Shown here in pieces: positions 100 through 13,390 of a stretch of 20,000 nt of DNA. The stretch's first letter is position 1. Every line of letters begins with the position of its first letter. The notes below the pieces were generated by a model that saw only the letters and a list, made by a program, of their open reading frames with translations, had not been told where the DNA came from and did no database searches. The DNA is from an uncultured virus (IMG/VR IMGVR_UViG_3300008266_011815) (taxonomy: Duplodnaviria; Heunggongvirae; Uroviricota; Caudoviricetes). A program made the position numbers and the translations under genes. The stretch lies in IMG/VR virus record IMGVR_UViG_3300008266_011815, one strand, 5' to 3'.

Positions 100-173
100 G
101 CCCTTTTAGTTAAATGGTATAACAGTTGATTTGTAATCATCAATTGGTGGTTCGATTCCATCAAGGGGCACCA
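100..173 (+). tRNA. tRNA-Thr(TGT)
   Basis: Acceptor GCCCTTT/AGGGGC, anticodon loop TTTGTAA (130-136), GGTTCGATTCC T-arm, 3' ACCA. Confidence 0.93.
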
Positions 174-180
174 AGAACCT

Positions 181-372
181 CGTAGGCCCATCTACGTTAT
201 AAATGGGGGTCTGTTGGCTTAACCAGAACGCCAAGGCTCATGCGATGTGCCTCAGAACCCGCTATATGGGTGCAAGAAAAATCGTAGGTGGGTTCTACAC
301 CTTACCAGAAGTAAATGTAGCGGACAGAGTAACAGCTCAGTCTAGGGCTAGTGAGGACTAGTGGCTAGGCAC
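181..372 (+). ncRNA. unassigned structured RNA with several pseudoknots, between tRNA-Thr and tRNA-Gly
   Basis: H-type pseudoknot CGTAG181-185/CTACG192-196 with CCCAT187-191/ATGGG203-207; crossing helices TGCGAT241-246/ATCGTA281-286 and AGAACCCGCT254-263/GGTGGGTTCT287-296; further hairpins 322-343 and 347-362; GC richer than the flanking CDSs; no credible ORF. Confidence 0.55.
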
Positions 373-376
373 TTTT

Positions 377-437
377 ATAGAACACATTCGGTTGGCTCAT
401 AGCCAACAGAGACATAAGAAACGTGAGTGTGTTTTAT
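377..437 (+). other. long stem-loop spacer element directly upstream of tRNA-Gly
   Basis: 13-bp stem ATAGAACACATTC377-389/GAGTGTGTTTTAT425-437 (2 G-U pairs) enclosing perfect hairpin GTTGGCT391-397/AGCCAAC401-407. Confidence 0.6.
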
Positions 438-445
438 CAAAGTAT

Positions 446-519
446 GCGGGGTTAGTTTAATGGTAAAACTACAGATTTCCAATCTGTTGTTGAGAGTTCG
501 ATTCTCTCACTCCGCTCCA
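446..519 (+). tRNA. tRNA-Gly(TCC)
   Basis: GCGGGGT/ACTCCGC acceptor, anticodon arm ACAGA-TTTCCAA-TCTGT, GTTCGATTC, U73 + CCA. Confidence 0.95.
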
Positions 520-604: not shown

Positions 605-608
605 AGAC

Positions 609-787
609 GTTCTGTCTAATCAGCAGATACTGTGACCCGCAGGATGAGAAGTGGTGTGATAGCCAAGGGTGGTACCACTCCTACCGAAGTGGCGCTGGCA
701 ATGCGAGAACGGAACCCGTCGGGGAGTGGGTGGAGGCCATGGGTACGCAAGTAACTATGGTATAATTACCACCGGGGTTCGCAGAGC
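609..787 (+). ncRNA. structured ~180-nt RNA, probably manA-motif-like
   Basis: Closing stem GTTCTG609-614/CAGAGC782-787; GGTGGTA668-674/TACCACC767-773; CCACTCC675-681/GGAGTGG723-729; GCCATGG736-742/CTATGGT755-761 capped by TAC-GCAA-GTA GNRA loop; two possible pseudoknots ACCC635-638/GGGT728-731 and GAACCC712-717/GGGTTC775-780. Size, two-pseudoknot layout and phage tRNA-adjacent context fit the manA motif as I recall it; not verified by a covariance-model search. Confidence 0.6.
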
Positions 788-798
788 ACTTAATTCAT

Positions 799-890: not shown

Positions 891-967
891 GGCGGAAGGG
901 TGAAACGGTTTACACGCTGGTCTCATAAGCCAGAAACATCAGGTTCGATTCCTGTTTTCCGCAACCA
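891..967 (+). tRNA. tRNA-Met(CAT), initiator-like, atypical
   Basis: Anticodon arm CTGGT-CTCATAA-GCCAG, GGTTCGATTCC, 3' end CCGCAACCA as in tRNA-fMet with a 1:72 mismatch (G:A); G at position 8 and one extra T at the T-stem/acceptor junction. Confidence 0.8.
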
Positions 968-1211: not shown

Positions 1212-1625
1212 TTACTTAAAGTAATTAGTTTCTCTCAGAGCAATGTTAATAAACTTGCTAGCAAATTCAAAATTTTTACTCAATGCTGTAAACAATTCCG
1301 GATTTAAAGATCTACTGGCTATACTATAGCTTGTTGACCCAATATTGATATAATAACCAATATCCATTCCTCGTTGTTTACCAAAGGTTGGGAATACTCC
1401 GCAGAGAAACAAACATTCGTCACCAAGATGCTTGGCATCACTAGCCGTTTGTATTGTTAAATAATTTTCAGCAATACTAGGTTTTGGATACCAATCGCTC
1501 TTTTCCATATGATCTGCCAATAGCAGCAGTATATAACTTTCAACATATTTGGGGAGCTCGTAGCCATAAAACTCGCTAGCCTCTTGCAAAAGTTGATAAA
1601 AGGCTGTAATATAGTGGTTGTTCAT
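1212..1625 (-). CDS. hypothetical helical protein (137 aa), antisense within the tRNA array
   Basis: Start moved to MNNHYITAF (1625) because the longer ORF overlaps tRNA-Trp; TAAATA box 5 nt upstream on the minus strand; motif LGDECLFLCGVFP...YYINIGSTSY resembles a proteobacterial conserved hypothetical family (from memory). Confidence 0.75.
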   Translation of the reverse strand: MNNHYITAFYQLLQEASEFYGYELPKYVESYILLLLADHMEKSDWYPKPSIAENYLTIQTASDAKHLGDECLFLCGVFPTFGKQRGMDIGYYINIGSTSYSIASRSLNPELFTALSKNFEFASKFINIALRETNYFK

Positions 1626-1640
1626 AAAAATATTTATTAC

Positions 1641-1714
1641 TACTCCATAGTGTAACGGCAGCATACCGGTCTCCAAAACCGTTGGTCGCGGTTCGAATCC
1701 GTGTGGGGTAGCCA
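1641..1714 (+). tRNA. tRNA-Trp(CCA)
   Basis: TACTCCA/TGGGGTA acceptor, anticodon loop CTCCAAA, GGTTCGAATCC, G73 + CCA. Confidence 0.93.
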
Positions 1715-1730
1715 TTAAAGAGAGATACAA

Positions 1731-3156: not shown

Positions 3157-4470
3157 ATGAACGTAGATATTAGAGACTGTACACATTTTGGTATATTACA
3201 CAGACCTGATAAGTATCTTTCCGAAAGTGTTGCTAATCAAAGTTTTGAAATAACACAATACTGGACAGAAACTTATATAAAAACTTATCAGGTCTCTGCA
3301 GACATTGATGAACTTTTAAAAATTGCATTAGCGCAAGGCAAAAAGTATTGCCTTATTCAAGAATCAGGAAATATGATCTTTGATCATAGTTTCTACAAAA
3401 CTCTAGCACCCTATCTTAATAATGACAATTGGTTTGCAATTGCTCACATCATTGCCAAAGAATCAACAGGCATACACCCCCAAACCATTTTTGTAAATGT
3501 AGAAAATTGGAATCGTATTGGACAACCTAGTTATCAAGAACACGCTCCTAATAGTCCAATAGATTTAATTGTACCAAAAAAAAGTTTAAGCAATATACAC
3601 GATGATTATACGCCTTTATGGATATTGCCTTCTAAGAATACAACCGCTGTCAGTGATTATCAGCCTGGGTGGGGTTGGATTAACTCTGCGTTAGAAGCAG
3701 GACTGATCGTACGGAACTTTACACATGATATGAGACAATATAAAGTTTTCTTGTACCCAGATAAAGACCACCTATGGTATGATATGCAGAGTATGATTCT
3801 TCATTCTCTAGCAGTAGAGCGTACTAAAGTATTTTTTGATAATACTGAAGGTATAAGTGGATTTGAATCTGTGTCTAATATTGATAATTTTTATCTAGTA
3901 GCTAGCGGTTTCAAACCAAACGTTATTGCCGAAGCTTGCGGATTTAATAATAATACAAACATTTGTTATATAGACTATAGCGGCAATGCACTTGAATTTA
4001 AAAGATGGTTGCATAAGAATTGGGATGGTCGAAACTATGTAGAAACTGTTCGACAATATGTTACCATGATACCTGCACTATTTGAAAGTGTTAAATTTGC
4101 AGATGTAGAAGATCACTGGCGTCAAGTAATTAATTATTTTGGTAGTGAAGAAAAGTTTGCTCTACACTGGAAAAAATTTAACAGTTGTAAAATAAGTTAT
4201 TTGCTAGTAGACATTGTAGGATTTCAAAGAAACTATCTGATTAACGTAATTGATCCAACAAAGAACAATGCTATTTGGTGGAGCCATGCTTTTAATACAT
4301 TTAACAGTCTTATGTTAAAAGGACGAGAAGGATCAGCAGTGTGCTATAAACATTGGATAGAAGATCTCTACAAACGAGATCCAAATATCATAACACTCAG
4401 TTGCTACGATAATCGACAAGAGTTATTACCATCTACTTCACTCAAGGAATACTTTAATGGATCTATATAA
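3157..4470 (+). CDS. hypothetical two-domain enzyme-like protein (437 aa)
   Basis: Long ORF overlapping the start of the downstream oxygenase; N-half has IHPQTIFVN and IHDDYTPLW motifs; C-half has a Rossmann/MTase-like strand ICYIDYSGNAL; function not assignable. Confidence 0.75.
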   Translation: MNVDIRDCTHFGILHRPDKYLSESVANQSFEITQYWTETYIKTYQVSADIDELLKIALAQGKKYCLIQESGNMIFDHSFYKTLAPYLNNDNWFAIAHIIAKESTGIHPQTIFVNVENWNRIGQPSYQEHAPNSPIDLIVPKKSLSNIHDDYTPLWILPSKNTTAVSDYQPGWGWINSALEAGLIVRNFTHDMRQYKVFLYPDKDHLWYDMQSMILHSLAVERTKVFFDNTEGISGFESVSNIDNFYLVASGFKPNVIAEACGFNNNTNICYIDYSGNALEFKRWLHKNWDGRNYVETVRQYVTMIPALFESVKFADVEDHWRQVINYFGSEEKFALHWKKFNSCKISYLLVDIVGFQRNYLINVIDPTKNNAIWWSHAFNTFNSLMLKGREGSAVCYKHWIEDLYKRDPNIITLSCYDNRQELLPSTSLKEYFNGSI

Positions 4471-5074
4471 TTGGATTATATTTCAAAGTAGATTACCTTG
4501 GTTAAAGATTATGCAAGACTGTCCTCACGACGAGATGCTAGCCGAGGCACGGGCAGTTAGGTCAAGATTTGTAGCTCATAGATATACTACCGGTGAGACT
4601 CATCAAGGTTGGAGTAGTTTAGTCGTGCATGGCCTTGGTCCTGAATGTACTTTGGCCCACGAATCATATGGCTACGACGATATAATGCAAGCACCACATG
4701 CATGGACAGAAATAGCAGACTTATGTCCTGTAACTAAGAGTTGGATAGAAAGTTTAGAATTTGAACACCTTTTTAGAGTAAGATTTATGTTGTTAGAAGC
4801 TGGCGGATTTATTGCTGAACATACTGACACTGATCAGTCTAGATTATTTGCGTATAATGTAGCTCTTAATCAACCCGAAGAATGTGTGTTTACAATGACA
4901 GAACACGGTCCAATACCATTTAATAAAGGCGATACATTTTTGTTAGATGTTAGCAACAGTCATCATGTGTATAATAATTCGAATGAAGATCGTTATCATA
5001 TAATCATACACGGTGTTCCGGGAGCAAAGGCTAGAGATCGAGTAGTAAAAAGTTTCTTAAAGAATAAAAAATGA
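4457..5074 (+). CDS. aspartyl/asparaginyl beta-hydroxylase-like 2OG-Fe(II) oxygenase
   Basis: RVRFMLLEAGGFIAEHTD (HxD)...SHHVYNNSNEDRYHIIIHG (distal His and 2OG-binding Arg). Confidence 0.85.
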   Translation: MDLYNWIIFQSRLPWLKIMQDCPHDEMLAEARAVRSRFVAHRYTTGETHQGWSSLVVHGLGPECTLAHESYGYDDIMQAPHAWTEIADLCPVTKSWIESLEFEHLFRVRFMLLEAGGFIAEHTDTDQSRLFAYNVALNQPEECVFTMTEHGPIPFNKGDTFLLDVSNSHHVYNNSNEDRYHIIIHGVPGAKARDRVVKSFLKNKK

Positions 5075-5784
5075 GCACACATCCTTATTATCCAAGATTC
5101 ACATACTTTAATCAGCAGTTAGAAAACTTCGATTGGACTAACAGTAAAATTTTAGACTACGGAGGTAACTGGGGTAATCTGTTAAGAGATCCTAGCAGTA
5201 CTATACCCCAAGAAAATTACTGGTGCATCGATGTAAGTGAAGATGCTATCAATCAAGGTAAACAAGATTATCCTAATGCACATTGGTACTATTACAATAA
5301 ATGGAATCATTGCTACAACAGTAACGGAGATAAGAGTTTAAAAATACCTAGCCTTGAAACTAAATTTGATCTGATTACTGCATTCAGTGTAGTAACACAT
5401 GTCACAGAAGAAGACATGATAGACATAATATATCATGATTTATTTCCATTGCTTAATACAAACGGTATTCTAGCTTTTACATTACTAGAACCTTCTGCTT
5501 TAGTTTATTTTGCTAAAAAACGAGGACTTAGTCTAATTGAGATAACAAAACTATTAAGCAAGGCCGCAGCACACAAAGATAGTCTTTATTACATTAACTC
5601 AGATATCATTATAGGTGTAGATCAGCCAGTACCGTTGCCTAGCTCTGATTTCTTTGTAAGCTTTTATTCGATAGAACGTGCCAAAAAAATATTCTCTAAT
5701 AACCTTCTAGATATTAAAAAACCTGCAAACAGCGAGATACAATATTGTGTATTTCTTAAGAATCATCCTGCTCAAGAAGAATAA
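5071..5784 (+). CDS. class I SAM-dependent methyltransferase
   Basis: ILDYGGNWG motif I, CIDVS motif II, FDLITAFSVVTH motif IV, LLNTNGIL. Confidence 0.85.
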   Translation: MSTHPYYPRFTYFNQQLENFDWTNSKILDYGGNWGNLLRDPSSTIPQENYWCIDVSEDAINQGKQDYPNAHWYYYNKWNHCYNSNGDKSLKIPSLETKFDLITAFSVVTHVTEEDMIDIIYHDLFPLLNTNGILAFTLLEPSALVYFAKKRGLSLIEITKLLSKAAAHKDSLYYINSDIIIGVDQPVPLPSSDFFVSFYSIERAKKIFSNNLLDIKKPANSEIQYCVFLKNHPAQEE

Positions 5785-6319
5785 TTGGATCAGGATCTAA
5801 TCCTACAGACAGAGTTACCCGAGGAACTTTTGCTTCATCATTAAGTTTGATTCCGTGCGGCTTACTAATTCTTAAAACAGTTGGTTCGTCAACTGTTACT
5901 TCATCTACAAGATTATAATCAGTGTTTACAACGCTGTAGAATACTGCCCCGTTAGGGAAAATCTCTTGGCTAAATTTAACATTAGCATAAAAACTTGTAA
6001 CTGTTTCTTCACAGTTTACAATAGGAATGTTTACTCTTGCTCTATCTGCACCAGAGTCAACATGAATCGCGCCTTCATAATTACTCAACATTATGTAAGC
6101 AATAACAAATTTTACCTTAAACCCTAATTCTTCAAATGCTTGATCAAACTCAGGACATTCTTTTCTAAACTCTTTATGATCAAATAAAAACACTGGAACT
6201 ATATTTCTTAGATCTTGAGGATTAGTTAAAAACTTTTCTTTTTCCTTATCTAAAAACTCTTCTGCTTTTTTTTGAATAACATCCAGATTTTTTAATTTAA
6301 TTTTTTTCCAGTATTTCAT
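5756..6319 (-). CDS. 2OG-Fe(II) oxygenase/cupin-like protein
   Basis: AIHVD...ARVNIPI.N...PTVLRISKPHGI...PRVTLS: HxD...H...R double-stranded beta-helix pattern. Confidence 0.7.
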   Translation of the reverse strand: MKYWKKIKLKNLDVIQKKAEEFLDKEKEKFLTNPQDLRNIVPVFLFDHKEFRKECPEFDQAFEELGFKVKFVIAYIMLSNYEGAIHVDSGADRARVNIPIVNCEETVTSFYANVKFSQEIFPNGAVFYSVVNTDYNLVDEVTVDEPTVLRISKPHGIKLNDEAKVPRVTLSVGLDPDPIILLEQDDS

Positions 6320-6328
6320 TTCTAATCC

Positions 6329-6787
6329 TTAAAAAATACATCCACTTATACTTAATCTTTTTTTACCTGGAGTTAAGTTCCAAGCTCTATGCATGGTGTC
6401 AACTTTTAACATGTGCCACCTATGCGGCATTATTACTTCTGAATGCAAAATAGTTTCTTTATCATCTTCATAAAATGTTGTTTCGACATCTTCATTTCCT
6501 TGATTAAAGATGTAATTAAATTTTATAGTTGCTCCAATGTCCTTGTGCATTGGTAAATCAGTTCGTATGACTTGCACAAACCATTTTATTGATTTACATA
6601 TATTTTCTTTGCACCATTGATTCAAATTATCAGTTGGTGGAATCGAACTGTATATATGTTTCATAATTTTATACTTTGGATCGTTCTCTGGGAACGCATT
6701 ATTTTTTTGAGACAAGATATATTCGTCGGTTATCTCATCTAAAAGCTCTTGAGGTATTCTGGGTAAATTTATATAGGTCACGTACAT
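6329..6787 (-). CDS. 2OG-Fe(II) oxygenase/cupin-like protein
   Basis: PMHKD...FNYI...WHMLKVDTMHRAWN...RLSIS: HxD...H...RxS pattern. Confidence 0.7.
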   Translation of the reverse strand: MYVTYINLPRIPQELLDEITDEYILSQKNNAFPENDPKYKIMKHIYSSIPPTDNLNQWCKENICKSIKWFVQVIRTDLPMHKDIGATIKFNYIFNQGNEDVETTFYEDDKETILHSEVIMPHRWHMLKVDTMHRAWNLTPGKKRLSISGCIF

Positions 6788-6793
6788 GGAAAA

Positions 6794-6822
6794 TATTTAT
6801 CTGCTACTATTATCAATAAATA
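6794..6822. promoter_or_regulatory. divergent pair of TAAATA late-promoter boxes
   Basis: TAAATA on the minus strand at 6794-6799 (6 nt before ATG 6787) and on the plus strand at 6817-6822 (before GAGG SD and ATG 6842). Confidence 0.6.
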
Positions 6823-6841
6823 TAGAAAAGTAGAGGAACTT

Positions 6842-7714
6842 ATGCAAATCAAACCATTAGACTATTGCGGAGTAGAAATAACTGACATCGATCTTGCCAA
6901 TCTGACAGACGATGACTACGCTCAGATAAAAGAAATATACCTCCAACATTTGATAATTGTTATCAGAAATCAAAAAGTTGCTACAGTTCCTTATGCTAAA
7001 TTGATTCAAAGACTTGGAACTATTGCCAATTGGAAACAGGCAGTATGGGATATTTTTGGAAAACCTTCTAAATTTTTTACAGGAAGTCCTGTTGATGCAT
7101 TCAGCTTTACAGGACCAGATTATATGTTTCCTGTACAACGAGTTACTGGTAAAAAAATAAACGGTCAGCGCACTGGAATTTTTGGACAAGGTAAACTAGA
7201 TTGGCATTCGAATATGAATGGACCTTTTAATCGAGCTCGAGGTGTCGCGCTCCAGGGAGTTTCAAAAGGCATTATTGGAACTAGTACCAGCTGGATGGAC
7301 ACTACATTAGCCTATGCTGCTATGAGTGACGAGCTTAAAAAGAGATGTGAAGGTGTAGTTGGAAGATTTGAATATAGTCCAGAAATTTGGGCTGAAGGTC
7401 TTCCACCTGACCAATATTCTGATATGTTAAAGAATAAAGAAGAATATTATGAAATGCCGTTAGTTAACATAAGTCATTCAGGAAACCCCGGACTTTATTT
7501 TCATTTTATGAATAAATGTTCGTTCCCTAGCGATCCAGAACTTCTCGAAATACTAAAAACACATTGCTTCCAACCACAGTTTATCTACACACACTTTTGG
7601 CAACCAGGAGATATTGTTGTCAGCGATCAAGTTCTTACTCTACATAAAAGAGATACTGACGATCCTAAAATTTTAGAAGAAAGAGTTCTCAGTAGATACA
7701 CCTTTAATCACTAA
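6842..7714 (+). CDS. TauD/TfdA-family 2OG-Fe(II) dioxygenase
   Basis: CGVEITDIDL, HLIIVIRNQ, LDWHSN, TSWMDTTLAY..MSDELK, HFWQPGDIVVSDQVLTLHKR, R at the C-terminus. Confidence 0.9.
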   Translation: MQIKPLDYCGVEITDIDLANLTDDDYAQIKEIYLQHLIIVIRNQKVATVPYAKLIQRLGTIANWKQAVWDIFGKPSKFFTGSPVDAFSFTGPDYMFPVQRVTGKKINGQRTGIFGQGKLDWHSNMNGPFNRARGVALQGVSKGIIGTSTSWMDTTLAYAAMSDELKKRCEGVVGRFEYSPEIWAEGLPPDQYSDMLKNKEEYYEMPLVNISHSGNPGLYFHFMNKCSFPSDPELLEILKTHCFQPQFIYTHFWQPGDIVVSDQVLTLHKRDTDDPKILEERVLSRYTFNH

Positions 7715-8328
7715 TGATTATTCATCGTATCGACAGCAACTATCCTATAGAAAAGATAATAGAATTCTGTAGTCATTCTAAAGTTGATCCGCTACCTGGT
7801 GCAATCAATATGTCTATTGATGATTGGGAAAATAAAAATTATACCTTATTGTATACACTATACAAACAAAAAAGATATGATGACCCTAGCAAGTCGGCAT
7901 ACCTTGGTATAGAGTTCGCCGGTAAGATCATAGCAGCCGGTGGATATTATCCATTAGATTCGGATCCTAATATTGCTATATTAATGTCTAGGATGTATAC
8001 TATACCTAAAGCCAGGAATCAAGCAGTACATGGTAAGTTTTTATTTCCGAGAATAATGTCGGAAGTTGCGGAATTGAACTACCAAGCAGGCCTGGTCTCA
8101 TATAATCAATATAATTTATGGATGAAGACCGCTCTTATGAGGGCTAGTAGTGGCCGAGGAATCTTTTTAGGTATTAAAACACCTGATGAATATCGAGGAT
8201 GGACTGATATAGAACAACCCCTCATGATAAAAAATACTCCACAATGGTGTTTATATAAACTGTTTAATCCTACTTATCTACCCATATTTCTAAAAAGTAT
8301 AGATAAAATCAAAATTTTATCTCAATAA
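7714..8328 (+). CDS. GNAT-like (acyltransferase-fold) protein
   Basis: GKIIAAGGYY...ILMSRMYTIPKARNQ: motif-A-like R.Y..P..R pattern. Confidence 0.6.
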   Translation: MIIHRIDSNYPIEKIIEFCSHSKVDPLPGAINMSIDDWENKNYTLLYTLYKQKRYDDPSKSAYLGIEFAGKIIAAGGYYPLDSDPNIAILMSRMYTIPKARNQAVHGKFLFPRIMSEVAELNYQAGLVSYNQYNLWMKTALMRASSGRGIFLGIKTPDEYRGWTDIEQPLMIKNTPQWCLYKLFNPTYLPIFLKSIDKIKILSQ

Positions 8329-8335
8329 ATAAACT

Positions 8336-9055
8336 ATGTTTCCTTTAAATTTATATTCAGCCATTGCGCTGTCATTGTTATTCACCCATGTAACTATTAT
8401 AGCAGTTACATTATACCTACATAGGTGTGCTACGCATCGTGGATTAGAAATGCATCCAATACTATCTCACTTCTTTCGTGCATGGCTTTGGTTAACTACT
8501 GGTATGACTACTAAAGCATGGGTAGCAGTGCATCGCAAACATCATCAGAATACAGATGCCGAAGGCGATCCACATAGTCCACATATATTCGGAATCTGGA
8601 GATTGATCGGAGGTGGATGGAGTTTGTATCACGAAGCGACCAAAGACCCGGCCATGGTTATAAAATATGGATCAGGTACTCCTAAAGATTGGGTCGAGCG
8701 TAAAATCTACACCCAATTCCATCAGTATGGTATTCTTGTAATGTTAGTTATAGACTTATTATTATTTGGATGGTGGGGCGCACTAATATGGGTAATACAA
8801 ATGACTTGGATACCTTTCTGGGCTGCTGGAATTATAAATGGGCTAGCACACTGGTGGGGTTATCGCAACGGTGAGACTAAAGACCAAAGCAGAAATATTA
8901 GTCCATGGGGTATCTTAATTGGCGGTGAAGAGCTGCATAATAATCATCACATGGATCCTGCAAGTCCCAAGTTTAGTCGCAAGTGGTTTGAAATCGACAT
9001 AGGTTGGGTATACCTTAATATTTTCAAGTTAATTGGATTGGTAAAATTAAAATGA
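8336..9055 (+). CDS. membrane fatty-acid (delta-9-type, proteobacterial DesA-like) desaturase
   Basis: His boxes HRCATH, HRKHH, HNNHH; GDPHSP, GEELHNNHH, EIDIGW; TAAATA at 8326-8331. Confidence 0.93.
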   Translation: MFPLNLYSAIALSLLFTHVTIIAVTLYLHRCATHRGLEMHPILSHFFRAWLWLTTGMTTKAWVAVHRKHHQNTDAEGDPHSPHIFGIWRLIGGGWSLYHEATKDPAMVIKYGSGTPKDWVERKIYTQFHQYGILVMLVIDLLLFGWWGALIWVIQMTWIPFWAAGIINGLAHWWGYRNGETKDQSRNISPWGILIGGEELHNNHHMDPASPKFSRKWFEIDIGWVYLNIFKLIGLVKLK

Positions 9056-9927
9056 AAAAAACCCTTTTACTATTACTAATATCTTTTTTTATGAGTTCTC
9101 TGGCTTATGCCGAGCCACCTAAAAAATTTAAATCTAAAAAATATAAACAGTATCAAACAAAAGTTTATAAGAAAAAACTAAAGGTTTCTAAAAAATTCTA
9201 TTCGCCTAATAGCTCATATGCAATATACGATTACTCTAGTTCTCAATTTGACAATGAGCATAATGTAACCGACATTAAAAGCATTGCCAGTATAACAAAG
9301 TTGTTTACAGCTATAACTGTAGTTAACAGCAAAGCCGACTTAAACGAAAAACTATACGTGACTGGTAACAACGGCGGCAAAGTTATCAAAGGCTCGTGGA
9401 TCAGTCGAATAGATCTTTTAAAAGCAATGGTTACTAATTCTGATAACCTAGCAGCTGAAGTATTGGCCAACAATCATCCTAGAGGGTTTAAACAATTTAT
9501 AATTGATGCAAATGACTATAATAAACGAATTGGGTTAAAGCATACAGAAATAGTTGACAGTAGTGGTCTACTTCCGGGCAATGTTAGCACAGCAGCCGAC
9601 TTAGTACTATTCTTAAATTCAATTAAAGATAATGACGTTATTAAAGAAATCGCTAATCTTAGAGGACACGAAATCGCAGTTCCTCGTCCTAAAGGTAAAA
9701 GAATTATAACAATTAAATTTCATAATACTAATCCTGACATTTACAAAATGGACAATGTTATTATAAGCAAAACAGGCTTTACTAATCCAGCAGGACGTTG
9801 TGTAGTCATGTTAGTTGAACGTGGTCAAAAGCTATATGCGTTAGTTGTGTTAGGTGCAAGAACTCCTAGCGACCGCAGTAGAATACTGCACAATTTATTA
9901 GACAAGGCTAATACAGTTCACATTTAA
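9052..9927 (+). CDS. D-alanyl-D-alanine endo/carboxypeptidase (peptidase S11, PBP7-like)
   Basis: Signal peptide, Lys-rich linker, SxxK (ASITKL), SxN (SDN), KTG (SKTGFTNPAGRC), DSSGL..GNVSTAADL. Confidence 0.92.
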   Translation: MKKTLLLLLISFFMSSLAYAEPPKKFKSKKYKQYQTKVYKKKLKVSKKFYSPNSSYAIYDYSSSQFDNEHNVTDIKSIASITKLFTAITVVNSKADLNEKLYVTGNNGGKVIKGSWISRIDLLKAMVTNSDNLAAEVLANNHPRGFKQFIIDANDYNKRIGLKHTEIVDSSGLLPGNVSTAADLVLFLNSIKDNDVIKEIANLRGHEIAVPRPKGKRIITIKFHNTNPDIYKMDNVIISKTGFTNPAGRCVVMLVERGQKLYALVVLGARTPSDRSRILHNLLDKANTVHI

Positions 9928-9937
9928 TTTTACAAAT

Positions 9938-9965
9938 CATAGTGCTCTATAAATAAAGCACTATG
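9938..9965 (+). promoter_or_regulatory. T4-type late promoter TATAAATA inside a start-codon-sequestering hairpin
   Basis: Perfect 9-bp inverted repeat CATAGTGCT9938-9946/AGCACTATG9957-9965; TATAAATA at 9948-9955 in the loop; ATG 9963 in the 3' arm. Confidence 0.75.
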
Positions 9966-10541
9966 ATTATAAGAGAACTGACATTTGACGATCATGCACA
10001 GTTATTAGAACTGATGCAGAAAAATCCAACTCTCATGAAAATTGAAGACGATGAGTATCAGGAAACACTAGCTCAACGTGCAGGATTTTTTTTAAAAGAC
10101 CCACACTTTTTTAATATTGGCTGCTTCGATAACAATAAGTTAGTGTCTACCATTAATTTTTACGAATCAGATCAAGCACCAAGTTGGACTATCATTCAGT
10201 GTACTAGAGATCTTCCAGGAGCATTTTGCTCATTCCCCGAAGAAAGAACCATGTTAAGTATGATGTTTCAGGAAGCTGAAGCTAGAGATCTTACAAGATT
10301 TTATATCTGTTTTAACTCAAAAATGCCTATGATGATGAATAGAAGCAGAGTGGGCGCAAGATTGCTTGCAAAATGGATCCCAGAAATTACTAAATATGAG
10401 ATAGCAGACGATGCTATTGTCCCGGCAGGAACTATGCCTAAGTACAGTTATCAAAAAATGTTATTAGGTAAACCCTGGCCCGTAGATTTAATTATAAGAT
10501 GTGGATTCTTAAAAAATGAGTACAGAAAAATTACAACTTAA
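9963..10541 (+). CDS. GNAT-like fold hypothetical protein
   Basis: MIIRELTFDD start and IGCFDNNKLVSTI strand typical of GNAT N-termini; weak otherwise. Confidence 0.55.
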   Translation: MIIRELTFDDHAQLLELMQKNPTLMKIEDDEYQETLAQRAGFFLKDPHFFNIGCFDNNKLVSTINFYESDQAPSWTIIQCTRDLPGAFCSFPEERTMLSMMFQEAEARDLTRFYICFNSKMPMMMNRSRVGARLLAKWIPEITKYEIADDAIVPAGTMPKYSYQKMLLGKPWPVDLIIRCGFLKNEYRKITT

Positions 10542-11331
10542 AGACTTTCATACACATACATGGTTTAGTGTATTACCTTTATATCTCCTCTTTCTAGGAT
10601 CCCTCAGTCAAATCGGAAGCACCTCGCTGTTGAGTCTGTGTTTATTTTTTGTTTTTTGGACATTAATTGGCGGCTGCGGAATAGAATTGACCTTCCACAG
10701 ATTGTTAAGTCATAAATCTTTTGAAATATCAAACTGGGCTAAAAAGTTGTTTTCTTATTTGGGGTGTTTAGCTATGAACGGTAGTCCTATTTTTTGGGTA
10801 GCTATTCACAAGCAACATCATCCCTACGCTGACACAGATTCTGATCCTCATCATCCTGGACAAGGATTCTTTATGAGTTATATTGGTTGGGCGTTACACA
10901 AGCCTAGTTTAGACAAAATTAGATTCGCTCGAGCAGGTAAGGACCTATTGACTTCTAAGTTTCAATTATTTTTACAACAGCACTATTATTTGTTAGTCTG
11001 GGGCTTTTATCTAGCCGTATTTTTAATTAGTCCTACAATTTTTTGGTTAAGTTTTGTGCCAGCATGTTTGTTAGCGCACAATCAAGGTAATATAGTTAAC
11101 TTTTTCTGTCATCAGAAAAAATACGGCTATAGAAATCACGAAGTCAAAGATAACAGTGTAAACATAAAAGCTTTAAGTTTTTTAACTTGGGGATTAAGTC
11201 TACACAATAATCATCATAATCAAAGTCAAAGTGCTAACTTAGCTTCTAAGAATGATGAGACTGATTTTGGTTACGTACTTTTAAAATTTTTATCTAAAAT
11301 TAAAATAGTTAAAAATTTACATACTGCGTGA
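10516..11331 (+). CDS. membrane acyl-CoA/acyl-lipid delta-9-type desaturase
   Basis: His boxes HRLLSH, HKQHH, HNNHH; DPHHP; hydrophobic segments. Confidence 0.92.
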   Translation: MSTEKLQLKDFHTHTWFSVLPLYLLFLGSLSQIGSTSLLSLCLFFVFWTLIGGCGIELTFHRLLSHKSFEISNWAKKLFSYLGCLAMNGSPIFWVAIHKQHHPYADTDSDPHHPGQGFFMSYIGWALHKPSLDKIRFARAGKDLLTSKFQLFLQQHYYLLVWGFYLAVFLISPTIFWLSFVPACLLAHNQGNIVNFFCHQKKYGYRNHEVKDNSVNIKALSFLTWGLSLHNNHHNQSQSANLASKNDETDFGYVLLKFLSKIKIVKNLHTA

Positions 11332-11337
11332 TAAAAA

Positions 11338-12396
11338 TTATTTTCCATCACTCCAGTTACTAGACACATATTTGTCGTAATAATCATAGAAATGTTGATA
11401 TCCTTTTTCTAAAGGATCTTGAACAGGACCAAAATCATCCATACCTGTTTTATAATTAAATTTTCGACCCTTATCTATTCTTAAAGCTATTTCATCATCT
11501 TCTACTGTAGTTTCCATATAAGCAGCCTGATGCGCAGCTACTAGTTCTGGTTCAAAGTGAAGAACATCTTCGGGATAATAAAATTCAACAATGTTTTTTG
11601 TTTTTTGCGGTGAGTCAGGCCACACCGTGGATACTACTAATACGTGCGGATACCATTCTACCATAATATTTGGATATATGGTTAACCATATTGCTCCATA
11701 CTCAGGAACCTTTCCACCTGAATAATTTAGTACAGCTTTCTGATACCTTTCCCAAACTGGAGTGCCTGGTGTACGTAGTTCGTTATTAACGCCAACAGAT
11801 TGGCAACTGTAGTTTTTACTGAACTGCCAAACGAGCTCTTCACAGTTGACAAAGCTTCCTAAACCAGGATGAGAAGGCGTTACATGGTAATCATCTAAGT
11901 AAACTTCAATAAATGTTTTCCAGTTATAATTACATTCTTGAACTATTCGAGAATGAAATGCATAATTTTCAAAACTAAAATGCTTACTTAAATTCATGTC
12001 GGCAAGATTTTCTTTGATATTAGTAAAGCCTGAATCAAATATAAGCCCGTTCCATGTTTGTGTACTAAATTTTCTAAGGCTAAGATTCGGGCAAGGATCA
12101 AATTGAGGTGCACCTAATAGTTTACCTTCACGATCGTATGTCCAACCGTGCAATGAACAAACAACATTGTTTGTTTTTCCTGATCCAGTTAATATAGTTC
12201 CTTGGCGGTGCCTGCAAACGTTGCTTAGACATTCAACACCGTTTTTATTTTTAATTAAGACTCTTGCTTCGTCATCTTGATCTATGACTAGATAGTTATC
12301 AACTGAAAGCTCGTGACCTAAGTATCTAGTCTGTTTGAACAATACTTGTTCTTTTTCTAAAATAAGATCATCAAAATAGAAGTGTGACGGTTTCAT
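11338..12396 (-). CDS. Rieske non-heme iron oxygenase alpha subunit (betaproteobacterial, putrescine-2-hydroxylase-like)
   Basis: Rieske CRH...CSLH; NWKTFIEVYLDDYHVTPSHPG mononuclear Fe site; EDDEIA distal Asp. Confidence 0.88.
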   Translation of the reverse strand: MKPSHFYFDDLILEKEQVLFKQTRYLGHELSVDNYLVIDQDDEARVLIKNKNGVECLSNVCRHRQGTILTGSGKTNNVVCSLHGWTYDREGKLLGAPQFDPCPNLSLRKFSTQTWNGLIFDSGFTNIKENLADMNLSKHFSFENYAFHSRIVQECNYNWKTFIEVYLDDYHVTPSHPGLGSFVNCEELVWQFSKNYSCQSVGVNNELRTPGTPVWERYQKAVLNYSGGKVPEYGAIWLTIYPNIMVEWYPHVLVVSTVWPDSPQKTKNIVEFYYPEDVLHFEPELVAAHQAAYMETTVEDDEIALRIDKGRKFNYKTGMDDFGPVQDPLEKGYQHFYDYYDKYVSSNWSDGK

Positions 12397-12406
12397 AAAT
12401 TAATTT

Positions 12407-13390
12407 TTAATTTGTAGTTTTGGCTATTTTTAATAATTCTTCAGTGGTCCAGTAATTACAATTTTGTTTAAACTCATTTATGATTAAAGGATATCCATCT
12501 GATGTTTTAAACTTATGACGGCCGCCGCCATAAGATTCTTTACCGTGTAAATTATACAGTCTTTCAGACACATCAATCATCCATGTTTCAATATCTTCCA
12601 TACCGTGTTTCTTGATTCTAGGGATCATTTCCGGCCAAGCTTCTCTGTATCCTTGAAGTTTAGTTGAACTCATTCCTAACTTACCAGGGAAGCCATCATT
12701 AACAATCTTATCAAACCAATTAGTCTGAGTTAGTGCTAAAAATTGATTAGGGCTCCATCGGCACCAATCTGCAACAGCCGATCGTCCTTGCTGCGTAAAG
12801 AACTTACACCAGCCCCAATTATATTCCCACTCAGTAACCAGCCATGTTCCTTTTTTAGAATAATCTTTATCAGTTCTTTCTATAAACAATTCTCCACCGG
12901 CCATTACTGGTAATCCGTCAACTAAGTCGCATAGAGCCAATTGTGGAAGTAGAGGAGGAATGACTATTTGAGATTTGAGACTGTAATCTGCTGCATCATT
13001 CTCAAAAAATTTAACAACATCGAAGTCAATAAACTTATATGGAACACCGAGTGATTCACATATAATAACTGCATAGCTCACATCATAGATGTTAAGATCA
13101 TTTTTATAACGTCCAATATAAACATCAAAATCAATTCCCGCAGCCTTAAACGATCTTAACATCATTTCGCTTTCGCTGCCGCCAGAAAACATTAAGCTAA
13201 ATTTTTCATTTGGATACCAATCGCGAATAGATTGAGTAGCTTTAATACATTCTGTTCTAAAGTCTTGTATAGGATCATCGGTTGGTTTTATCAAAGCTTG
13301 AAATTTTTGCTCCGGACTAGTTCTTCTAAGTTTGGTTGGATCATTGTCATAACAATAATACAGCCAGTTGTTTTCGGTATGGGTAAACAT
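12407..13390 (-). CDS. PP-loop (adenine nucleotide alpha-hydrolase-like) ATP pyrophosphatase-fold protein
   Basis: FSLMFSGGSESEMML (SGGxD/ES loop), LGVPYKFID, PVMAGGE; GAGG SD. Confidence 0.7.
   Translation of the reverse strand: MFTHTENNWLYYCYDNDPTKLRRTSPEQKFQALIKPTDDPIQDFRTECIKATQSIRDWYPNEKFSLMFSGGSESEMMLRSFKAAGIDFDVYIGRYKNDLNIYDVSYAVIICESLGVPYKFIDFDVVKFFENDAADYSLKSQIVIPPLLPQLALCDLVDGLPVMAGGELFIERTDKDYSKKGTWLVTEWEYNWGWCKFFTQQGRSAVADWCRWSPNQFLALTQTNWFDKIVNDGFPGKLGMSSTKLQGYREAWPEMIPRIKKHGMEDIETWMIDVSERLYNLHGKESYGGGRHKFKTSDGYPLIINEFKQNCNYWTTEELLKIAKTTN

What the first reader, a model, noticed from the sequence alone, without database searches (positions are those of the whole stretch)
181..372. 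Unassigned multi-pseudoknot ncRNA co-located with phage tRNAs
Seen: a compact textbook H-type pseudoknot (181-207; 5-bp S1, 5-bp S2, 1-nt L1, 6-nt AT-rich L3), a possible second small knot (TCTG210-213/CAGA224-227 with TTGGC214-218/GCCAA230-234), a large crossing pair of helices (241-246/281-286 and 254-263/287-296), an alternative long-range pair GTGCCT247-252/AGGCAC367-372, and further hairpins. It begins 7 nt after the tRNA-Thr CCA. Established: large structured RNAs of unknown function (e.g. GOLLD, ROOL, manA) occur in phage tRNA arrays. Inference: a stable ncRNA released by tRNA processing; I cannot match it to a family I know.
Basis: partly seen in the sequence, partly recalled or inferred. 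Interest (0 to 1): 0.7.

Follow-up and report, generated by a model that had tools for sequence, protein, structure and literature searches.

The report
Five-knot RNA among phage tRNA genes
The gap after a tRNA gene of this large lake phage encodes a real, expressed, roughly 195-base non-coding RNA folded into four pseudoknots in a row and tied end to end, from an uncatalogued family whose most conserved hairpin resembles a working part of the bacterial ribosome; its job is untested.

Summary
Real. Window 178-372 is a conserved ncRNA gene: 173 distinct relatives in large freshwater phages, no Rfam hit, core motif in 0 of 185,579 prokaryote genomes. Covariation in 44 close relatives supports four abutting H-type pseudoknots (182-320), a near-invariant core hairpin (322-339) and a terminal hairpin (340-370) whose loop pairs with the 5' end, closing a ring. 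Lake metatranscriptome contigs cover it at 99-100% identity. New here: the core pairs in the register of 23S rRNA helix 44 (GTPase-associated centre) and is the best helix-44 match in the contig (1 of 82,438 positions). The reciprocal test is weaker (helix 44 ranks 9th of 99,962; helix 40 ranks 1st). Best guess: a stable RNA cut from the tRNA precursor that works in trans as bait for a host translation-linked or defence protein (0.35); strict helix-44 decoy 0.2. The scan noted what appears to be this family before on other DNA (e1-5809918, e1-5809929, e1-6174448).

The parts
100..173 (+). tRNA-Thr(UGU) with encoded CCA; upstream neighbour
   Evidence: tRNA-Thr(UGU) is the commonest upstream neighbour of the family, 27 of 78 adjacent cases
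178..372 (+). The ncRNA gene (about 195 nt): four tandem pseudoknots, core hairpin, terminal hairpin, ends tied together
   Evidence: RNA-library contigs
178..181 (+). 5' strand of the ring-closing helix; pairs with 353-356 in the terminal loop
   Evidence: 178:356 covaries (UA 26/CG 18, 6 of 6 co-changes, E<0.005), 180:354 100% canonical (E 0.19); wider family, true vs swapped partners: 0 of 1000 permutations reach the observed mean
182..207 (+). Pseudoknot 1: S1 182-185/192-195 (181:196 possible), S2 187-191/203-207
   Evidence: 183:194 and 190:204 covary, E<0.005
208..234 (+). Pseudoknot 2: 208-210/222-224 crossed by 214-218/230-234
   Evidence: 98.1% and 97.7% of cells paired; 216:232 has 5 of 5 co-changes but E 1.2; GGT/ACC swapped to CGT/ACG in other subfamilies, seen by eye. 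Weakest of the knots statistically
235..286 (+). Pseudoknot 3: 235-237/249-251 plus 238:247, crossed by 241-246/281-286; inserted hairpin 252-253/276-277 and 257-261/267-271
   Evidence: 238:247 covaries (UG 23/GC 20, E<0.005); helices 90-100% paired; likely tertiary contact 213:255 (E<0.005)
287..320 (+). Pseudoknot 4: 287-292/301-306 crossed by 295-299/316-320
   Evidence: 296:319 covaries (E<0.005, 82% canonical in the sequence-only alignment); recovered by the blind chain search
322..339 (+). Near-invariant core hairpin: G323-C338, A326-U337, G327-C336, purine pair 328:335, six-base loop 329-334 beginning with GNRA; same register as 23S rRNA helix 44 (1087-1103)
   Evidence: kept with at most 2 changes in 33 of 39 and 24 of 31 hits found without the core pattern; 328:335 AG 86/GA 84/UA 2/AA 1, 326:337 AU 171/GC 2; rRNA comparison
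340..371 (+). Terminal hairpin 340-345/365-370 and 347-352/357-362 with a conserved 1x2 internal loop (G346 / R363 G364)
   Evidence: six covarying pairs at E<0.005; 100% of cells paired
372..445 (+). Separate stem module (AACACA...TGTGTT flanks, variable inside); not part of the RNA
   Evidence: similar stems at contig 5792-5867 and in many related loci; only 1 close homologue (L303)
446..519 (+). tRNA-Gly(UCC); downstream neighbour

Best explanation
SHOWN: 178-372 is a non-coding RNA gene of a family confined, so far, to tRNA arrays of large (about 160-365 kb) uncultured freshwater phages. It folds into four abutting H-type pseudoknots, a near-invariant core hairpin and a terminal hairpin whose loop pairs with the 5' end. 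It is present in RNA libraries from lakes. INFERRED (likely, about 0.8): it is co-transcribed with the tRNAs and freed by the nucleases that mature their ends; with both ends buried it accumulates as a stable particle. INFERRED (the committed guess): the knots are a nuclease-proof scaffold whose sequence is free to drift, and the working surface is the 50-nt core, which binds a host protein in trans. Because the core pairs like 23S rRNA helix 44 and sits on a helix placed like helix 42, the likeliest partner is a factor that recognises ribosomal RNA (a translation-arresting defence enzyme, or a factor that docks at the GTPase-associated centre), so that the RNA acts as bait and keeps ribosomes working for the phage, the same end that the neighbouring tRNAs are thought to serve.
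For: Family and fold: 145 distinct members by strict core, 173 with up to 2 changes; 14 of 19,347 column pairs at E<0.05 in a sequence-only alignment of 44, 10 of them 100% canonical, covering the ring helix, knots 1, 3, 4 and the terminal hairpin; 63-pair model 97.6% paired against 33-46% when slid; blind four-knot chain search recovers the same knots, window score 94 above all 147 shuffles (max 86), 74 of 145 members above that maximum. Non-coding: the 52-codon ORF 203-361 is open in 3 of 44. Context: 134 of 144 loci hold a tRNA, 398 tRNAs on the same strand and 0 opposite, many different neighbours, so it moves like a gene, not like a leader. Expression: in run X8 the only contig on 3 kb is 189-356 with no differences; X1 70-345, X2 1-317, X3 99-287, four studies. 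Core: conservation is not an artefact of the search pattern. 14 of 19 identities to E. coli 23S 1086-1104, the best site in the 23S for the window's core; a profile of 77 distinct helix-44 sequences ranks the core 1st of 82,438 contig positions (18.0 vs 6.0 bits) and 1st inside 172 of 173 members; the covarying register 326:337, 327:336, 328:335 equals 1090:1101, 1091:1100, 1092:1099 and fits 40 of 40 unbiased members. Precedents (passages read): helix 44 bases 1095-1098 are the target of the antibacterial ADP-ribosyltransferase Tre23 (PMC8661411); phage PhiTE uses an RNA mimic to suppress a host toxin (PMC5449768).
Against: No function was tested and no partner is known. The reciprocal test is weak: a profile of 40 unbiased cores ranks E. 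coli helix 44 only 9th of 99,962 positions (1.9 bits), behind 23S helix 40 (14.2), a coding site (9.5) and 23S position 320 (9.3); among sites with the family's pairing it is first by only 0.3 bits. Expected identities over 17 columns are 12.8 (helix 44), 11.8 (helix 40), 11.7 (site 320), so this may be a recurrent loop module. The family never has the rRNA's C1092-G1099 pair (0 of 173 vs 77 of 77), always has C at the 1089 position (0 of 77 rRNAs), and has A at the 1098 position in only 68%. No kink-turn, so not the L10 site as defined in PMC4538822; a helix-43-like stretch (10 of 11 identities at 212-222) is seen in this subfamily only, and L11 binds mainly 1058-1083 (PMC1802607). No third partner covaries with 328:335. 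Register evidence rests partly on 2+2 rare variants. Knot 2 has no pair at E<0.05. 37 of 145 members gave no full chain under the rigid descriptor and 48 of 147 shuffles did. RNA contigs may come from DNA, show no ends or strand, and runs were picked with this stretch.
Confidence: 0.35

Rival explanations
1. Stable trans-acting RNA whose core hairpin is an ordinary GNRA-like docking module that locks the fold (convergent with rRNA loops); it serves a phage protein, multimerises like GOLLD/ROOL, or soaks up host ribonucleases through its pseudoknots as type III antitoxin RNAs do, with no link to the ribosome.
For: Three unrelated 23S loops score among the top sites for the core profile; loop variants GUAA, GCAA, GAAA, GCGA all fit GNRA; the ring helix could equally form between molecules; GOLLD and ROOL from phage tRNA islands form RNA-only cages (PMC12286853, passages); ToxI antitoxins are pseudoknots (PMC5449768).
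Against: A mere docking loop would be expected to drift with its receptor, yet the 19-nt core is near-invariant while the knots are 44-59% identical between subfamilies; the four knots are not repeats and no type III antitoxin family was hit.
Confidence: 0.33
2. A self-cleaving or processing ribozyme of a new class that frees tRNA ends or punctuates the array, as theta ribozymes do in gut phages.
For: Compact, heavily knotted fold with a small invariant core; start 0-8 nt behind a CCA in the close subfamily; theta ribozymes sit at tRNA 3' ends (PMC10879173, passages).
Against: No HDV-like nested core found (0 candidates); no ribozyme family hit; only 1-2 copies in genomes with dozens of tRNAs; 66 of 144 members do not follow a tRNA directly; the invariant core lies 145 nt from the tRNA end.
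Confidence: 0.1
3. It binds the ribosome itself, as the pseudoknot ring of tmRNA or a tandem-pseudoknot IRES does, to store, rescue or redirect ribosomes.
For: Four pseudoknots closed into a ring recall tmRNA (recalled); size about 190 nt; the phage carries IF-1 and many tRNAs.
Against: No acceptor stem, T arm, conserved CCA end or conserved ORF; ARAGORN finds 0 tmRNA; usually followed by a tRNA or a stem module, not a reading frame.
Confidence: 0.1
4. A tRNA mimic: the core is a circularly permuted D arm (G18 G19 A20...G22-U25 joined to A9-G15), as in Y-like RNAs.
For: The first 14 nt of the core occur exactly in phage tRNA-Arg(UCU) genes, and the alternative register 327-330/335-338 can pair.
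Against: Those tRNA genes were brought in by the search pattern itself; unbiased variants break that register (330:335 CA 8, AA 3; 328:337 AC 2, UU 2) while all fit the other; no T arm; no TROVE/Ro60 gene in 0 of 20 records; YrlA not hit on the RNA.
Confidence: 0.04
5. A cis element or inert spacer: the fold only spaces or protects tRNAs in the precursor.
For: Always embedded in tRNA arrays; 4 truncated or fused copies seen (L043, L048, L051, L054).
Against: Near-invariant core, tertiary covariation (213:255, 328:335), 18 different upstream tRNA types, two diverged paralogues in one genome.
Confidence: 0.08

Closest known systems
Phage T4 small stable RNAs rnaC (species 1, 139 nt) and rnaD (species 2, 119 nt)
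   Same: Non-tRNA RNA genes inside a phage tRNA array, same strand, function unknown (annotation; PMC9697503 passages).
   Different: Model R1 finds no match in the T4 tRNA region; longer; five knots; no conserved CCA end.
GOLLD (RF02032) and ROOL (RF03087) RNAs (accessions recalled and from earlier notes)
   Same: Ornate RNAs of phages and prophages near tRNA islands, multiple pseudoknots, unknown function (PMC12286853 passages).
   Different: About 195 nt against 600-800+; no Rfam hit; absent from prokaryote genomes by core pattern; multimers untested.
23S rRNA helix 44 / helix 42 of the GTPase-associated centre (E. coli 1051-1108)
   Same: 14 of 19 identities, same pairing register and loop length, one unpaired A before the next helix.
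   Different: Purine pair in place of C1092-G1099, C at 1089, variable 1098, no kink-turn, no conserved helix 43, strand order permuted; helix 40 scores higher by sequence alone.
Theta (HDV-like) ribozymes of phage tRNA genes
   Same: Pseudoknotted RNA directly 3' of a phage tRNA (PMC10879173 passages).
   Different: Tandem rather than nested knots, three times longer, no HDV-like core, freshwater rather than gut phages.
tmRNA
   Same: Four pseudoknots in a molecule whose ends are joined (tmRNA architecture recalled).
   Different: No tRNA-like domain, tag ORF or CCA.
manA motif (RF01745)
   Same: About 190 nt, found in T4-like phages (PMC2864571 passages; model length).
   Different: No hit on the window or on 22 members at E<=1; described as a 5' UTR element with one doubtful pseudoknot.

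Membership tests
Any Rfam 15 family | Score at or above the gathering threshold | tested here: not met
   Only tRNAs in the window; nothing on 174-445 at E<=10; nothing but tRNAs and tRNA-derived noise in 20 loci at E<=1 and in 7 and 10 further loci at gathering
T4 rnaC/rnaD | Sequence or structure homology | tested here: not met
   R1 gives no match at E<=1 in L249; family core profile scores at most 6.5 bits there
T4 rnaC/rnaD | Non-tRNA RNA gene inside a same-strand phage tRNA array | tested here: met
T4 rnaC/rnaD | Accumulates as a discrete stable RNA | tested here: inconclusive
   RNA-library contigs cover it, one lying wholly inside it; contigs cannot show ends, strand or level
GOLLD / ROOL | Length over 500 nt and match to the family model | tested here: not met
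   about 195 nt
GOLLD / ROOL | Homo-oligomeric RNA cage | not testable with these tools
   needs mass photometry or cryo-EM
manA | Match to RF01745 | tested here: not met
   the genome-wide search (0 of 21) rang in no control and shows nothing by itself
Theta / HDV-like ribozyme | Nested double pseudoknot (P1 starting at G1, 3-bp P3 with 7-nt loop) | tested here: not met
   0 candidates in 166-380 with a loose descriptor
Theta / HDV-like ribozyme | Start within 5 nt of a tRNA 3' end | tested here: inconclusive
   true here (4 nt) and in much of the close subfamily, not in 66 of 144 members
Theta / HDV-like ribozyme | Self-cleavage | not testable with these tools
   bench assay
tmRNA | tRNA-like domain with CCA and internal tag ORF | tested here: not met
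Bacterial Y RNA (YrlA) | T-arm/D-arm tRNA-like domain and a linked Ro60 (TROVE) gene | tested here: not met
   no YrlA hit on the RNA; TROVE in 0 of 20 records, controls rang in 2 of 14
L10(L12)4-binding rRNA mimic (rplJ leader type) | Kink-turn plus unpaired UAA (PMC4538822) | tested here: not met
   internal loop is 1x2 (G / RG) without tandem G-A pairs
23S helix-44 mimic | Same base-pair register and loop length as 1087-1103 | tested here: met
   40 of 40 unbiased members; 328:335 covariation E<0.005
23S helix-44 mimic | Sequence match specific to helix 44 | tested here: inconclusive
   rank 1 of 82,438 one way; rank 9 of 99,962 the other way, helix 40 first
23S helix-44 mimic | Bound or modified by factors that act on helix 44 | not testable with these tools
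   bench assay
Candidate structured RNAs of Fremin et al. 2023 (PMC10690425) | Overlap with one of 8,495 IMG/VR models (29-151 nt) | tested here: inconclusive
   no motif or contig-name hit in the readable files, but the alignment and position files were too large to read; a fragment may be listed there

The most novel reading that the evidence does not exclude
Jumbo and large lake phages make a ring-closed, five-pseudoknot RNA that displays a copy of 23S rRNA helix 44 as a decoy for host enzymes or factors that act on the ribosome's GTPase-associated centre. It would be a phage-encoded ribosomal-RNA mimic working in trans, and would point to a bacterial anti-phage or stress pathway that attacks this helix.
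Probability: 0.2. Interest if true: 0.88.

Novelty: new variant of a known kind. Interest (0 to 1): 0.66.

Why it matters
Stable RNAs of unknown function have been known in phage tRNA arrays since T4, and none has a mechanism. This family is widespread in large freshwater phages, small enough to make and solve, and has a covariation-backed topology (four abutting H-type knots closed by an end-to-end knot) that no Rfam family matched. It separates a drifting scaffold from a 50-nt invariant core, which says where to mutate. If the core is a helix-44 decoy, phages protect host ribosomes with an rRNA mimic, a counter-defence not found in the nine paper searches made here. If not, it is still a new compact fold and a target for RNA structure work.

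Tried and rejected
Pistol-ribozyme likeness of the 5' knot (recalled): no Rfam hit at E<=10 and the S1 loop pairs with 203-207 by covariation; dropped. Minimum-free-energy fold pairing 182-195 with 283-298 and the 10-bp match 210-219/401-410: window-specific, in conflict with covarying helices; dropped. Permuted D arm: proposed, rejected. 5' knot patterns: 2 and 117 hits, nearly all chance (1 known relative, L146). blastn against 50,697 GenBank phages: one 48-nt hit at E 0.9, none for the core; no cultured carrier found, so the host is unknown. Model-fitted alignment A2 misplaces knots in distant members and was not used for pair statistics. Phage-encoded partners: TROVE 0 of 20, L11 0 of 5, L10 0 of 5, L12 1 marginal 28-residue hit in 5. 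manA genome search rang nowhere, uninformative. No RNA contig among those listed covers 357-444 (41 pieces not shown): no conclusion drawn. 29 of 117 pattern matches in the rRNA set were dropped as non-rRNA before the profile. My covariation test is an own G-test/APC script with a tree-based null, not R-scape; E-values are approximate. Papers: passages only of PMC2864571, PMC10690425, PMC12286853, PMC8661411, PMC1919483, PMC2952862, PMC1802607, PMC4538822, PMC10879173, PMC9697503, PMC5449768; all others as search listings.

Full report
Setting. The window is bases 7320-27319 of a 41,235-base virus record, estimated 12% complete. The record has 18 ARAGORN tRNAs; the window encodes ClpP, IF-1, a DNA ligase and an HNH nuclease, and a parvulin gene ends at window 93. 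The finding lies between tRNA-Thr (100-173) and tRNA-Gly (446-519). Rfam reports only tRNAs.

Observation. But a lone 5+5 bp knot occurs about once per strand in shuffled 20-kb windows, so homologues had to decide.

Family. A relative at 77% identity turned up near a related HNH gene (E 4e-31). With two more scans there are 145 distinct members, 173 if two changes in the core are allowed. The motif is in 0 of 185,579 prokaryote genomes and not in 50,697 GenBank phages. A covariance model hits 17 of 19 virus records tested, 6 of 7 near-complete ones, 162-365 kb long; four carry two diverged copies (17 of these records were chosen because they hold the RNA). 134 of 144 loci contain a tRNA; 398 tRNAs are on the RNA's strand and none opposite; 78 members start right behind a tRNA of 18 different types, 50 of 113 end 5-17 nt before one, the rest follow a stop codon or a sigma-70-like site. 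No member tested matches an Rfam family and T4 rnaC/rnaD do not match the model. The 52-codon ORF 203-361 is open in 3 of 44. Earlier notes of this scan describe what seems the same family on other DNA.

Structure. Thirty-five close relatives (mean identity 78%), then 44, were aligned by sequence alone and all column pairs scored against a tree-based null. In one search, 14 of 19,347 pairs reach E<0.05: ten are 100% canonical (183:194, 190:204, 238:247, 178:356, 342:368, 343:367, 344:366, 350:359, 351:358, 352:357), 296:319 is 82% canonical, 328:335 and 213:255 are non-canonical contacts, and 178:354 follows from 178:356 and 180:354. The model is: ring helix 178-181/353-356; knot 1 (182-185/192-195 x 187-191/203-207); knot 2 (208-210/222-224 x 214-218/230-234); knot 3 (235-238/247-251 x 241-246/281-286, with a hairpin in its last loop); knot 4 (287-292/301-306 x 295-299/316-320); core hairpin; terminal hairpin. 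Its 63 pairs are 97.6% paired, 31 with changes on both sides, against 33-46% when slid (counted with the first core register). A blind search for four abutting knots recovers the same chain in the window with a score above all 147 shuffles; 108 of 145 members and 48 of 147 shuffles give a chain, 74 members exceed the best shuffle, 37 give none under the rigid rules. The ring helix also holds in the wider family (0 of 1000 permutations, modest effect 9.2 vs 8.5). Knot 2 lacks a significant pair (best E 1.2) and rests on conservation and on swaps seen by eye.

Expression. Nineteen RNA runs share words with 90-620. In four studies laid, contigs cover 70-345 (X1), 1-317 (X2), 99-287 (X3) and 189-356 (X8, the only piece on 3 kb), with 0-1 differences. 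This shows presence in RNA libraries, not ends, strand or level, and the runs were chosen with this stretch.

The core. Because my first pattern fixed the core, I searched again with two upstream motifs: 33 of 39 and 24 of 31 hits carry the core with at most two changes, the rest look like coding chance hits. The variants set the register: 326:337 is AU 171/GC 2, 328:335 is AG 86/GA 84/UA 2/AA 1, and 329-332 is always GNRA; this fits 40 of 40 unbiased members, the alternative 37. That rejected my first idea, a permuted tRNA D arm. The register and sequence recalled 23S rRNA helix 44; I fetched E. coli rrlH and 77 distinct prokaryotic versions. The window's core has 14 of 19 identities at 1086-1104, its best site in the 23S; the helix-44 profile ranks the core first of 82,438 contig positions (18.0 vs 6.0 bits) and first within 172 of 173 members. 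As in rRNA (A1103, then C1104-G1055; PMC1919483), one A separates the hairpin from the next helix. Against: run the other way, the core profile puts helix 44 ninth of 99,962 E. coli positions, behind helix 40, a coding site and position 320; helix 40 and position 320 pair in the register that the family's variants disfavour, but they show that such loops recur. The family differs from rRNA at the 1089, 1092:1099 and partly 1098 positions, lacks the kink-turn needed by L10(L12)4 (PMC4538822), and shows a helix-43-like stretch only in this subfamily, whereas L11 contacts mostly 1058-1083 (PMC1802607). No phage-encoded Ro60, L10 or L11 was found.

Mechanism. Shown: gene, family, fold, presence in RNA. 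Inferred: release by tRNA-maturing nucleases and stability from buried ends (about 0.8). Committed guess (0.35): drifting knots are a scaffold; the invariant core binds a host protein in trans, most likely one that recognises rRNA, keeping translation open for the phage. Helix 44 is a real target of a bacterial enzyme (Tre23, PMC8661411) and a phage RNA decoy against a host toxin is known (PMC5449768), but neither paper concerns this RNA. A non-ribosomal scaffold or sponge is almost as likely (0.33); ribozyme 0.1, ribosome-binding ring 0.1, spacer 0.08, tRNA mimic 0.04.

Novelty. The kind (orphan stable RNAs in phage tRNA arrays: T4 rnaC/rnaD, GOLLD, ROOL) is known; this fold and family are in no Rfam model and were not found in nine paper searches. 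The alignment and position files of PMC10690425 could not be read and may list a fragment; most subscription papers are outside the library. Verdict: new variant of a known kind, interest 0.66; strict helix-44 decoy 0.2, interest 0.88 if true.

Noticed in passing
window 605-798: A second conserved non-coding RNA between tRNA-Pro and tRNA-Cys: fold z -2.11, no Rfam hit, not hit by model R1, homologues in 15 fetched loci at E<0.02, some redundant, and covered by RNA contigs 622-784 (X1) and 645-806 (X3), which lie outside the stretch used to pick the runs.
   Followed up: partly
window 372-445; contig 5792-5867; many loci: Recurring stem with conserved AACACA...TGTGTT flanks and freely varying interior between tRNA genes; 36 distinct pattern matches, some chance. 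Looks like a processing signal or an insertion cassette.
   Followed up: partly
L003:2710-2990: Two further structured-looking modules between tRNA-Glu and the family member in a related phage.
   Followed up: no
L019, L024, L084, L091 and others; G001, G007, G012, G013: A second subtype with the same core and, by eye, the same four-knot order but different knot sequences; some genomes carry both subtypes.
   Followed up: partly
L017, L021, L042, L047, L056, L063, L071, L082, L092, L095, L096, L098, L131, L269, L336: One subfamily sits directly behind the stop codon of one conserved protein gene (coiled-coil-like C terminus ending in ...EGL[IL]); the protein was not identified.
   Followed up: no
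L043, L048, L051, L054: Truncated or fused copies that keep the core and terminal hairpin but have lost all or part of the knots; recombination products or assembly chimeras.
   Followed up: no
window 892-963: A tRNA (CAU anticodon) found by Rfam (45.3 bits) but missed by ARAGORN; another such at L010:829-899.
   Followed up: no
window 1212-1730 (- strand): A 172-aa ORF on the opposite strand inside the tRNA array, overlapping tRNA-Trp at its start, with no Pfam hit.
   Followed up: partly
window 3157-13390: A long block of metabolic-looking genes (oxygenase-, desaturase-, Rieske- and methyltransferase-like by eye; not scanned).
   Followed up: no
window 213, 255, 274: Position 213 covaries with 255 (AA 28/GG 15, E<0.005) and 274: a likely base triple tying knot 2 to the hairpin inside knot 3.
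   Followed up: partly
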